58,345 bases of DNA from Leucoraja ocellata (lineage: Eukaryota). The DNA lies in the NCBI GenBank assembly GCA_036785375.1, contig JAWMAR010001544.1, positions 186,001 through 244,345 on the forward strand, read 5' to 3'. Every line of letters begins with the position of its first letter. Position 1 is the first letter of the stretch. The position numbers are program-made. This document shows, one piece after another, positions 1 through 3,000 of this stretch.

Positions 1-3000
1 TTAGAGAAACATTTTATGTTTAAATGACATTGGGAGCCACAGACAAACATGGATTCAAATTCTCTTCCTAATAAATCCATGGATTAAACGTTATTCCAAA
101 ACTACAACTGTTCCGAAATCTCCCCATTATACATTCAACGCATTTTCCAAATGGGAAAAAATCGTGTTCTTTGACATAAAACAGGTTAGGCAGCAACTGT
201 GGAATGAGAAAACCAAGCATTTTCCATGTCGACTATCATTGGGGGACTAAACCATGGCGAATTCAGTAGAGGTATAGCATAGAAATAGACCCTTCTGCCA
301 ACAAAATCCAGGGCCACTCACAAGTTCCACGTTATCACACTATCGCATTCACCCCCGACCCACCCGGGTCAATCACCCAGGTCACTTAACCTGCAAACCT
401 GCACTCTTTTGGGTTGTGGGAGGAAAGCTGAGCACCAGTAAGAAACCACAGGGAGAACGCACAGTTCTCACCGTCTGCACCTGATTTCGGGAACGAAGTC
501 TGGTCTCTGGCGCTACAACTTGTCATTCGGCTCCCCTCTATGGGACTTGTCTTTCGCCACAGGCTGCGTGACCCTCGAGGCGTTTGCAACATTTACTGTT
601 CCTATTTATGATTTCTAGTAATATATTCTTATTTTTATTTTTAAACATATAACTTCTTTGCGTTCATTGAAATAACATAATCGGACAACAGAAATACCCG
701 GTCGCTGCCACTCGAATTGAACGTACAAACACGTCAAACTGCGCAACAATATCGTCTCCTACAGTGACCAGCTGAATCATACCGCCGATGGGATGAATCA
801 CATAACACAAATTTGCTGAACCTCCACAAAAATCCAAATATCTCTGTCTAAAAACCACCGAAATTCATTGTTCCAATGACCACAGAGCCAATCATTGTTG
901 AAATAAAGATGAATAACACAATACACGTGGATTAACATTTCCATATAATGTGAATTTCCTTCAGTTCCTCTGTACCTAGTACACCCGGTACATTGTCATC
1001 TATAGATCGCGTTTCACGGATTTTGCTTTCTTAGCTTTGCTGTAACATTGGTTCACATGGCCAACTCATTGTACTTCAAGATAGACAAAACAAGTTGGAG
1101 TAACTCAGCGGGAGAGGCAGAGTTGCTCCAGCTTTGTGTCAATCGGCAGCGTAAATCAGCATCCACTATTCCTTCCTATTCATTGTACTTCAAGATATAT
1201 AACTGCGCAATTAACCCTGACCCTTGCACTTCTGTGTTTTGCTGCAAGATATTTTTACTTCTTCCGTGCAAGTTTTGTTAGCGATTGGATTAAAGGTGGC
1301 AAGGCGATTTCACCAATTAATACATACACTTTAAATACTTGAACATTTTACACCCAGGATTTATCCGTTACTATGTTTAAGAAGGAACTGCAGATGCTGG
1401 AGAATCGAAGGGTACACAAAAAAGCTGGAGAAACTCAGCGGGTGCAGCAGCATCTATGGAGCGAAGGAAATAGGCAACGTTTCGGGCCGAAATCCTTCTT
1501 CAGACTGAATAAGGGTTTCGGCCCAAAACGTTACCTATTCCTTCGCTCCATAGATGCTGCTGCACCCGCTGAGTTTCTCCAGCTTTTTTGTGTACATGTT
1601 ATCCGTTACTATGTTTGTTTCATATGCGCTGAGAAGAAACAAACTGAGACCAAGTACCCGCTGTTGATTAGAAAATACAGTTCGATGCATCGCAGATCAA
1701 GGACCACAACAATCTCAAACAATTAGAAAGCATAGTGAAAGCAAATTGATGCAAAATGTTCCACTAATTTGGAACTAAACCGCATCCACTTCATAGTCAA
1801 AGGATCGAAAGTCATAGCACATAATGCGTTTAAATCGGCAATCTCACTGCAGCAAAATCACATAACATTCTAAAGCAACATCGATCCAACATTGCAATGA
1901 ATGGGTAATTAATGTAGAAGAACAATTTAAGATAATTATTGGAAATATAGGTTAAAATTACAACTGGATACATCTAGAGACTGAATAGGATAAAGTTTCT
2001 TACCGCTGGTTACCGTCACCATGGTTCCTCCTCCCCAGTAGTCAAGATAGGCACGGTGTTACATTCTATGGGGCTCTTCACACAATAACATGATCTGCAC
2101 AAGGCAGGCAAAAAAAGAACAAAAATCCTGTCATTATTCGTATTTCACATCTAAAGCAGATGCCATTGCTCTTTGAAAACAATGAATGCATTAAAAAAAT
2201 CATTTCCAACAATAATCACATACCACGGCCCCGTGTATTAAACAGGGCAGTGAAATGTGATAAGAATCATCTACATATAAAATATAAATTAACTCAAATT
2301 ACCTCTACAATAAAATATGCGGAAATATTCCTGGACATGTTTATGCTCCTGTTGTATGAAATATTAAATTGAAAATATCATATACTGGCCCAGATCACAG
2401 TATTATGGGTTGCGGATGTTTTTGTATTGGTAGGAACCGCTGTGCCATATAGTCACAGTGAAACATGTCATGTCAAATACTTCGCTCTTCAAGAACTGAT
2501 GCATGTACAGCTAACAGAGGATGGATGTCCCAGGGGACTCTTCGCTGTCACTTATAAAGCTAAACGCTGTTCTTCTAAAGCTCATATAAAATAACGTTAA
2601 TTGTTCGGAAGACAGTTGGACATTTCTCAAAACAATCCATGTAACTTTAAGTGGTGAAAATTCATTAGAATTTGCTTCACACGGCCTATCCTCCGGTGCT
2701 TGTAGGTTGGAGCAGGATACAACTAGGTGCCCAGGTTTTTGTACGAGGAAGTCGCTGTTTGCAGCACTGTGACCCCACTGTATACTCGCACAGTAATAGA
2801 CAGCGGTGTCTTCGATCTTCAGGTTCCTGGCGATCACGGTGAACATATTATTCGAATTGTCTTTGGACGGAGTAAATCGGCTCTCGATCCCTGGAGCGAA
2901 TGACTTGTCAGAAGAAGAGTAGTAGTAAAGCAGCCACTCCAGCCCCTGCCCGGGGACCTGACGGACCAAAGACATATAGGTGCTGCTAAGAGTGAACCCG

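What the first reader, a model, noticed from the sequence alone, without database searches (positions are those of the whole stretch)
2445..2460. Possible germline open-and-shut RAG joint at D2
Seen: the D2 core is TATACTATATGG in cluster B but ACTATATGG in cluster A. The 3 missing nt abut the 5' heptamer exactly (plus strand agt[ata]cacagtg, placement unambiguous), and the heptamer is intact. Established: RAG cleavage followed by rejoining of the same signal and coding ends (open-and-shut joint) trims the coding end and spares the signal. Inference: an aborted D1-to-D2 step in the same cluster that completed V-to-D1, which would be a route for generating new germline D segments. The D1 cores also differ more than their flanks do.
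Basis: partly seen in the sequence, partly recalled or inferred. Interest (0 to 1): 0.72.

Follow-up and report, generated by a model that had tools for sequence, protein, structure and literature searches.

The report
Three-base gap beside skate D2 signal
Two neighbouring skate antibody gene clusters differ by three bases exactly where the second D segment meets its recombination signal, which fits a cut-and-reseal by the RAG recombinase in germ cells but cannot be proved from two copies.

Summary
The window holds two tandem IgM heavy-chain miniclusters of a skate on the minus strand (CH4 exon 97% identical to an Amblyraja radiata protein). In cluster A the D2 core is 9 nt (2453..2445). In cluster B it is 12 nt (29412..29401). 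The missing TAT abuts an intact 5' heptamer and the gap cannot be slid.

Cluster A is also V-D1 joined. It has lost four V-end bases and carries an exact GTA|TAC palindrome that reads as P nucleotides. That is the known RAG signature of germline-joined cartilaginous-fish genes.

The TAT gap is the only length difference between the D1 3' signal and the end of J. A random indel would abut one of the four shared signal borders with p about 0.011. Six of the nine other indels look like slippage; this one does not.

The case still rests on one event. There is no third cluster, so deletion in A cannot be told from insertion in B. The D1 core is itself hypervariable, which points to some other process acting on D cores. 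No skate genome, reads or published skate D2 sequence could be reached.

Open-and-shut joint about 0.4; ordinary indel about 0.35.

The parts
2445..2453 (-). Cluster A D2 core, 9 nt (ACTATATGG)
   Evidence: flanked by signals on both sides
2454..2481 (-). Cluster A D2 5' recombination signal: heptamer cactgtg 2460..2454, 12-nt spacer 2472..2461, weak nonamer agtatttga 2481..2473 (6 of 9 to the recalled consensus)
   Evidence: read; 1 mismatch in 28 against cluster B
2417..2444 (-). Cluster A D2 3' signal: heptamer cacagcg, 12-nt spacer, nonamer acaaaaaca
   Evidence: pattern match 2418-2444, 3 matches against 0.01 expected; 0 mismatches in 28 against B
2772..2785 (-). Cluster A V-D1 junction and D1: GTA (P nucleotides) followed by TACAGTGGGGT
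   Evidence: shared V end TGTGCGA, B's last four V bases CAGA absent, GTA|TAC exact palindrome only for n=3
2786..3085 (-). Cluster A V exon, from the intron acceptor to the shared V end
   Evidence: open frame ...[13 protein letters not shown]; cluster B's V exon matches V-set in Pfam, E 1.2e-15
2734..2771 (-). Cluster A D1 3' signal: heptamer cacagtg, 22-nt spacer, nonamer acaaaaacc
   Evidence: pattern match 2735-2771, 2 matches against 0.01 expected
2004..2090 (-). Cluster A J: signal 2090..2052 (nonamer tgttattgt, 23-nt spacer, heptamer caccgtg) and J coding 2051..2004 (YLDYWGGGTMVTVTS), then splice donor gtaag
   Evidence: read
29401..29412 (-). Cluster B D2 core, 12 nt (TATACTATATGG)
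29413..29440 (-). Cluster B D2 5' signal (heptamer cactgtg 29419..29413)
29373..29400 (-). Cluster B D2 3' signal, 12-nt spacer
   Evidence: 29374-29400
29731..29743 (-). Cluster B D1 core, 13 nt (TACAACAGGGAGT)
29744..29770 (-). Cluster B D1 5' signal, 12-nt spacer, perfect nonamer; absent from cluster A
29693..29730 (-). Cluster B D1 3' signal, heptamer cactgtg (differs from A at heptamer position 4), 22-nt spacer
30108..30450 (-). Cluster B V exon (30450..30147) and its 23-spacer signal (heptamer cacagtg 30146..30140, 23-nt spacer, nonamer acaacaacg)
28960..29007 (-). Cluster B J coding segment
   Evidence: read
18237..24811 (-). Cluster B constant exons, located as open frames rather than mapped exon ends: CH1 within 24449-24811, CH2 within 22671-23108, CH3 within 20360-20935, CH4 within 18237-18683
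   Evidence: C1-set in Pfam for all four; CH4 97% to an Amblyraja radiata protein

Best explanation
After the tandem duplication that gave clusters A and B (about 2.5% diverged), RAG was active on cluster A in the germ line. It fused V to D1 by a standard coding joint. Either in the same episode or in another, it also cut between D2 and its 5' 12-spacer signal. That break was not carried through to a D1-D2 coding joint. The coding end was nibbled by three bases (TAT) and ligated back to its own blunt signal end, giving an open-and-shut joint. The result is a shorter but still recombinable D2. Shown: the two cluster structures, the exact and unambiguous position of the 3-nt gap, the intact heptamer, the joint in A with trimming and a P palindrome, and the non-random placement. 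Inferred: that TAT was lost in A rather than gained in B, that RAG rather than any other lesion made the break, that it happened in germ cells, and that it was linked to the V-D1 event.
For: The gap abuts the heptamer on the coding side and cannot slide. The heptamer and the rest of both D2 signals are conserved, with 1 mismatch in 28 and 0 in 28, and the 9 shared core bases are identical. So this looks like an isolated local event, not a diverged or imported tract. It is the only gap event in the bins covering A 2771..1999. The other 9 indels lie in the upstream region and leader intron (2) and the J-C intron (7). Random placement gives a border hit in 1.1% of trials. Six of the 9 other indels can slide by 2 to 7 nt, which is the slippage or microhomology type; TAT is blunt, as end-joining products often are. 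Cluster A shows RAG-type processing at V-D1: clean removal of both signals and 406 nt, loss of CAGA from V, and GTA|TAC. This matches the criteria of Lee et al. 2000 for germline joins (P region, deletion, no signal remnant; passages read). A 12/23-compatible partner, the D1 3' signal, is present. Non-standard germline RAG products have precedent: a germline hybrid joint that inverted the D1-D2 interval in a shark cluster, as described by Lewis and Wu 2000 (passages). Open-and-shut joints occur at low frequency in vitro and in vivo, also on single-signal substrates (Wilson et al. 2000, passages). Tillman et al. [quoted passage not shown]
Against: This is one event in one pair of paralogues. 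No outgroup exists, so polarity is unknown, and an insertion in B fits the alignment equally well. Judged post hoc, the chance of some indel touching a D core is 8.9%. A 3-nt deletion inside a 12-nt core has 10 possible positions, so it would abut one of the two borders by chance in 2 of 10. Coupled cleavage would also open the D1 3' coding end, and that border keeps its last two bases and its length. The D1 region carries a cluster of changes that joint processing cannot explain: an ACA copy-number change of slippage type, a 1-nt insertion, a substitution, and a change at heptamer position 4. So D cores here are diversified by something else too, and that process could have made the D2 change. 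Only 1 of the 4 shared borders shows a length change. Germ-line origin was not checked against reads.
Confidence: 0.4

Rival explanations
1. An ordinary small indel (a replication or repair error unrelated to RAG) arose in an AT-rich, unconstrained and fast-changing D core and happens to lie at the border.
For: Indels are common between A and B: 10 besides the join in 3651 columns. The D1 core shows that D cores are hot for change here: 8 events in the top 20-nt window against a mean of 0.56. That includes a slippage-type 3-nt ACA copy change and a 1-nt insertion. Given a 3-nt deletion somewhere in a 12-nt core, 2 of the 10 placements abut a heptamer. CDR1 and CDR2 are the next most divergent coding stretches, with 4 events each. 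This suggests selection or relaxed constraint on antigen-contact parts in general.
Against: The exact border position has p about 0.011 under uniform placement. The gap has no repeat or microhomology signature, unlike 6 of the 9 other indels. No other indel lies in the bins covering A 2771..1999.
Confidence: 0.35
2. The polarity is the reverse: 9 nt is ancestral and cluster B gained TAT, either as untemplated addition during an open-and-shut event in B or by an unrelated insertion.
For: The alignment is symmetric and no outgroup is available. B's core reads TATAC-TATAT, so the extra TAT completes a near-repeat.
Against: TAT is not the P sequence expected from a coding end that begins AC (that would be GT). 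It is not adjacent to a template copy, so it is not a simple slippage duplication (read). Cluster B shows no other sign of germline RAG action. Simple nibbling needs one step; addition needs a polymerase step.
Confidence: 0.1
3. A short gene-conversion patch from a third cluster carrying a 9-nt (or 12-nt) D2 replaced the D2 of A (or B). The indel would then be older and unconnected with the V-D1 joint of cluster A.
For: The D1 core and one heptamer base differ in a tight patch while the adjoining spacer and nonamer are identical. That is what a micro-conversion tract would leave. Skates are reported to have 100-200 IgH clusters (Malecek et al. 2008, passage).
Against: No linked substitutions accompany the D2 gap: 0 mismatches in the 9 shared core bases, 0 in the 28-nt 3' signal and 1 in the 28-nt 5' signal. 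This rival also only moves the question of how a blunt border indel arose to another cluster.
Confidence: 0.08
4. An assembly or consensus error in one of two 97% identical paralogues.
For: The window is a draft with six N runs. The site is TA-rich.
Against: The gap is a non-homopolymer, non-repeat 3-nt difference. The flanks carry cluster-specific substitutions on both sides, so the two copies are not collapsed.
Confidence: 0.04

Closest known systems
Germline-joined (VD-J) immunoglobulin clusters of cartilaginous fish (Lee et al. 2000, passages; review by Mashoof and Criscitiello 2016, passages; Kokubu et al. 1988 recalled only, not held)
   Same: Cluster A has V fused to D1 while D2 and J are still split. 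Both signals and the intervening DNA are removed cleanly, a coding end is trimmed and there is a P palindrome. A closely related unjoined paralogue lies next door.
   Different: Nothing differs for the V-D1 joint itself: it is a further example. The D2 change is not a coding joint.
Germline hybrid joint in a shark V-D-D-J-C cluster: inversion of the signal-bounded D1-D2 interval (Lewis and Wu 2000, passages)
   Same: It is a non-standard RAG product fixed in the germ line. It involves the same pair of signals (D1 3' and D2 5') and leaves a cluster that can still rearrange.
   Different: Here the interval is not inverted and no signals are exchanged. The only trace is a 3-nt loss at one border, which is far weaker evidence than an inversion.
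Somatic open-and-shut joints (Lewis and co-workers, as summarised by Wilson et al. 2000, and Tillman et al. 2002)
   Same: The change sits at the heptamer/coding junction, the signal is spared, and the segment stays in place with its signal.
   Different: Those joints were shown in lymphoid cells or on plasmids with RAG present. Here the event is inferred from a comparison of paralogues in a genome assembly, without knowing the ancestral state.

Membership tests
Elasmobranch IgM heavy-chain minicluster (V-D1-D2-J-C) | One V-set exon, two D segments, one J and C1-set constant exons, all in one orientation within about 15-20 kb | tested here: met
   Cluster B: V-set E 1.2e-15 and four C1-set exons; D1, D2 and J read; a frame with a membrane-anchor-like stretch near 14946-15233. 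Cluster A: V-D1, D2 and J are present; its C exons lie beyond the window start.
Elasmobranch IgM heavy-chain minicluster (V-D1-D2-J-C) | Signal layout V-23, 12-D1-23, 12-D2-12, 23-J (layout recalled; spacers measured here) | tested here: met
   V 23 nt; D1 5' 12 nt; D1 3' 22 nt; D2 5' 12 nt with a weak nonamer; D2 3' 12 nt; J 23 nt.
Germline-joined Ig gene made by RAG | Clean loss of both signals and the intervening DNA compared with an unjoined relative | tested here: met
   A 406-nt gap in A runs from B's V end to B's D1; no signal remnant is left at the joint.
Germline-joined Ig gene made by RAG | Coding-end processing: trimming and/or P nucleotides | tested here: met
   CAGA of V is absent. 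GTA|TAC is palindromic with the D1 start; only n=3 of n=1-5 fits. A chance match of three bases is about 1 in 64 (my arithmetic).
Germline-joined Ig gene made by RAG | Present in germ-line DNA, not in a lymphocyte clone | not testable with these tools
   No reads or tissue information. It is inferred from being the assembly consensus, in tandem with cluster B.
Open-and-shut RAG joint | Sequence change exactly at the heptamer/coding border with the heptamer intact | tested here: met
Open-and-shut RAG joint | The changed copy is derived from a known unmodified substrate (polarity) | not testable with these tools
   The window holds only two clusters. The search with the open frame across D2 found 0 proteins. 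The text search for the D2 string found 0 papers. The older skate and shark papers are not held.
Open-and-shut RAG joint | Dependence on RAG cleavage | not testable with these tools
   Circumstantial only: a RAG-type V-D1 joint in the same cluster and a compatible partner signal.
Open-and-shut RAG joint | If cleavage was coupled, the partner border (D1 3') was reopened and resealed too | tested here: inconclusive
   The D1 3' border keeps its length and its last two bases. Nearby there is a 1-nt insertion, a substitution and a change at heptamer position 4, which are not typical of a resealed end. A perfect reseal would leave no trace.
Open-and-shut RAG joint | Length changes pile up at signal borders across many clusters | tested here: inconclusive
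   One of the 4 shared borders is changed. With two clusters no distribution can be drawn.

The most novel reading that the evidence does not exclude
The TAT gap is the first recognised footprint of a germline open-and-shut joint. On this reading, RAG in the germ cells of cartilaginous fish not only fuses segments and swaps signals. It also edits the ends of D segments that stay split, acting as a site-specific germline mutator that makes new heritable D alleles.
Probability: 0.35. Interest if true: 0.7.

Novelty: new variant of a known kind. Interest (0 to 1): 0.42.

Why it matters
Germline RAG activity in cartilaginous fish is accepted as the source of pre-joined antibody genes and of at least one signal-swapping hybrid joint. 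If cut-and-reseal events also leave heritable marks, RAG would be a direct germline source of new D-segment alleles. The hundred or more clusters reported for skates would then hold a countable record of aborted recombination. That would make the rate and the outcomes of germline recombination measurable from a single genome. If the gap is an ordinary indel, the window is simply one more example of a VD-joined cluster next to its unjoined paralogue.

Tried and rejected
1. Outgroup inside the window. Self-BLAST finds only two copies of the D region, and no third V, D or J turned up.

2. Outgroup from protein collections. The 73-residue plus-strand open frame that crosses D2 in cluster B was searched against 1.84 billion representatives and found 0 proteins. 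The three word-indexed protein searches served to identify the organism only.

3. Outgroup from print. A text search for a 14-nt D2-plus-heptamer string found 0 papers. Harding et al. 1990 on skate IgH and Kokubu et al. 1988 are not held. Only the abstract of Hinds-Frey et al. 1993 is held. The search for skate genome IgM papers gave nothing relevant among the 15 listed.

4. Hairpin or cruciform rival. The heptamer pair around D2 folds only weakly as single-stranded DNA: -3.4 kcal/mol in B (z -1.5, 14 of 200 shuffles as good) and -4.9 in A (z -2.6, 5 of 200). This was not pursued as a cause.

5. An idea considered and dropped. A's V-D1 junction and B's D2 both begin TATAC, which suggested that the TAT had moved. 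No recombination path gives this, and the P-palindrome reading explains the junction.

6. Reading the whole D1 difference as junction processing was rejected. The 3' half of D1 and heptamer position 4 differ as well.

7. The prokaryote collection genome contigs and the phage, plasmid and E. coli collections were not used, because they cannot hold skate DNA.

Full report
WHAT THE WINDOW IS

The window holds two tandem IgM heavy-chain miniclusters on the minus strand, surrounded by retrotransposons. The CH4 exon of the complete cluster is 97% identical to a protein of the thorny skate Amblyraja radiata. It is 71-74% identical to shark IgM heavy chains. The V exon is at most 68% identical to named shark V regions. 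The source is therefore a skate, not human. The six N runs were left as they are.

Cluster B is complete.
- V exon 30450..30147, followed by a 23-spacer signal.
- D1 at 29743..29731, with a 12-spacer signal on its 5' side and a 22-spacer signal on its 3' side.
- D2 at 29412..29401, with 12-spacer signals on both sides.
- J at 29007..28960, with a 23-spacer signal.
- Four C1-set exons between 24811 and 18237.

Cluster A lies downstream on the same strand. The window covers it from upstream of V down to the J-C intron.

The two clusters align over 3651 columns with 92 mismatches (2.5%) and 11 indels. This agrees with the self-BLAST blocks of 95-97% identity.

THE OBSERVATION

D2 is ACTATATGG in A (2453..2445) and TATACTATATGG in B. 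The missing TAT lies directly against the 5' heptamer cactgtg, which is identical in both clusters. The gap cannot be moved by even one base.

The signals are genuine. Nonamer-spacer-heptamer patterns hit only at the D segments: 3 and 2 matches where 0.01 were expected. The bare heptamer is no commoner than chance.

The side remark is also right. The V-D1 junction/D1 core is the most divergent 20-nt stretch of the alignment, with 8 events against a mean of 0.56. CDR1 and CDR2 of the V exon come among the next, with 4 events each.

CLUSTER A IS A GERMLINE VD-JOINED CLUSTER

A lacks 406 nt that B has: the end of V, the V signal, the V-D1 interval and the D1 5' signal. At the joint:
- The shared V end is TGTGCGA.
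- B's last four V bases (CAGA) are missing.
- The next six bases read GTA|TAC. TAC is the start of B's D1 and GTA is its exact reverse complement. Of P lengths 1 to 5, only 3 fits.

Clean signal removal, trimming and a P palindrome are the criteria that Lee et al. 2000 used to assign germline-joined shark genes to RAG acting through hairpin intermediates (passages). Partly joined VD-J clusters are a known feature of cartilaginous-fish IgH (review passages). This part is a new example of a known kind.

HOW UNUSUAL IS THE TAT GAP?

- It is the only length difference in the bins covering A 2771..1999, from the D1 3' signal to just past the end of J. The J bins in that call are shifted by 5 nt from the true borders, which I re-read. 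This does not affect the counts.
- The other nine indels lie in the upstream region and leader intron (2) and in the J-C intron (7).
- Six of those nine can slide by 2-7 nt, the mark of slippage or microhomology. TAT is blunt.
- I placed the ten non-join indels at random. At least one abuts one of the four shared heptamer/coding borders on the coding side in 1.1% of 200,000 trials. At least one ends inside a D core in 8.9%.
- The D2 flanks carry no extra substitutions: 1 mismatch in 28, 0 in 9 and 0 in 28. The gap therefore looks like a single local event after the duplication, not an imported tract.

WHY THIS FITS AN OPEN-AND-SHUT JOINT

- An open-and-shut joint rejoins a coding end to its own signal end (Wilson et al. 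2000, passages).
- Its accepted footprint is sequence heterogeneity at the heptamer-coding junction. Tillman et al. 2002 saw this in 1 of 20 rearrangements at a 5' D-beta signal (passages).
- According to the summary in Wilson et al., such joints also form on single-signal substrates.
- A non-standard germline RAG product in sharks has precedent. Lewis and Wu 2000 describe a hybrid joint that inverted the D1-D2 interval (passages).
- In cluster A the needed partner, the D1 3' signal, is present, and RAG has demonstrably acted on this cluster.

WHY IT IS NOT ESTABLISHED

1. Polarity is unknown. With two clusters, loss in A and gain in B are equivalent, and no outgroup could be reached.
2. It is a single event. 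Only one of the four shared borders is changed.
3. Coupled cleavage would open the D1 3' end too, and that border shows no length change.
4. D1 differs from B by several changes: a 3-nt ACA copy-number change of plain slippage type, a 1-nt insertion, a substitution, and a base at heptamer position 4. V-D1 processing can touch only the 5' end of D1, so another process is at work. It could be micro-conversion from other clusters, selection for diversity, or error-prone repair. The same process could have made the D2 change. In that case a 3-nt deletion in a 12-nt core abuts a border in 2 of 10 placements by chance.
5. Germ-line status and the accuracy of the assembly rest on the consensus alone.

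A hairpin formed by the two D2 heptamers is weak (-3.4 and -4.9 kcal/mol). I do not regard it as a cause.

WEIGHING

| Explanation | Probability |
|---|---|
| RAG break at the D2 5' border resealed with loss of three bases in A | about 0.4 |
| Ordinary indel | about 0.35 |
| Gain of TAT in B | about 0.1 |
| Conversion from a third cluster | about 0.08 |
| Assembly error | about 0.04 |

The exact, blunt, isolated border position favours the RAG reading by roughly tenfold over an indel placed at random within the core. The prior for visible open-and-shut events is low, and that balances the advantage. These weights are my judgement, not a computed posterior.

NOVELTY

I found no paper that links open-and-shut joints with sharks or with germline evolution of D segments.
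- 'open-and-shut' + 'germline' + 'shark': 0 papers.
- 'open and shut' + 'recombination signal' + 'germline': 3 papers, which by title and the start of the abstract deal with mouse lymphocytes and DNA repair (listing only).
- The wider search on 'open-and-shut', 'hybrid joint' and 'RAG' matched 106 papers, of which I saw the 25 listed.

These searches cover only the open-licence library. Subscription papers and older scans were not searched, and supplements could not be opened.

If real, the event would be a new variant of a known kind: germline RAG products, of which coding joints and a hybrid joint are documented. The skate genome is reported to hold 100-200 IgH clusters, some of them joined (Malecek et al. 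2008, passage). It would allow the decisive count, but that count could not be made here.

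Noticed in passing
window 2772-2790 (minus strand): The V-D1 joint of cluster A carries an exact 6-nt palindrome GTA|TAC, which reads as three P nucleotides on an untrimmed D1 end. The V end has lost four bases.
   Followed up: yes
window 2765-2785 and 29724-29743: D1 is the most divergent 20-nt stretch between the clusters. The differences are an ACA copy-number change, a 1-nt insertion, a G/A substitution, and the 3' heptamer reading cacagtg in A against cactgtg in B. 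The adjoining 22-nt spacer and nonamer are identical. The cause is unresolved; micro-conversion, selection or error-prone repair are candidates.
   Followed up: partly
window 2971-2990 and 2891-2910 (cluster A V exon); 30336-30355 and 30256-30275 in B: Substitutions between the two V exons cluster in CDR1 and CDR2, with 4 events per 20 nt each. The V exon as a whole is 4.3% diverged against 2.0-2.7% for non-coding flanks.
   Followed up: partly
window 2781-2785 and 29408-29412: A's V-D1 junction material and B's D2 both begin TATAC. I take this as coincidence, because the P-palindrome reading explains the first.
   Followed up: partly
window 1511-1556 and 736-763: Cluster A has two larger blunt indels in the J-C intron, 46 nt and 28 nt present in A only. 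Substitutions lie next to both, so they are complex events.
   Followed up: no
window 48447-49249: An array of 29.7 copies of a 27-nt unit, 96% matching. All six frames are open across it. It lies just upstream of an endonuclease/reverse-transcriptase open frame at 49399-51876.
   Followed up: no
window 10591-13890 (+), 43778-46135 (+), 49399-51876 (+), 37093-38295 (-): Several LINE-type retrotransposon copies with endonuclease and reverse-transcriptase domains. One is preceded by an open frame with a GDSL-lipase-like domain (10591-11535). Two of the reverse-transcriptase frames also match the short ALKBH8_N model.
   Followed up: partly
window 40871-43623 (minus strand): A reverse-transcriptase frame of 657 aa next to a frame with a weak, below-cut-off match to the phage-integrase N-terminal domain. 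This suggests a tyrosine-recombinase retroelement of the DIRS or Ngaro type; that label is recalled, not tested.
   Followed up: no
window 17243-17388: A (GT)n microsatellite of about 73 copies sits between two N runs, downstream of the CH4 exon and upstream of the frame with a membrane-anchor-like stretch near 14946-15233.
   Followed up: no
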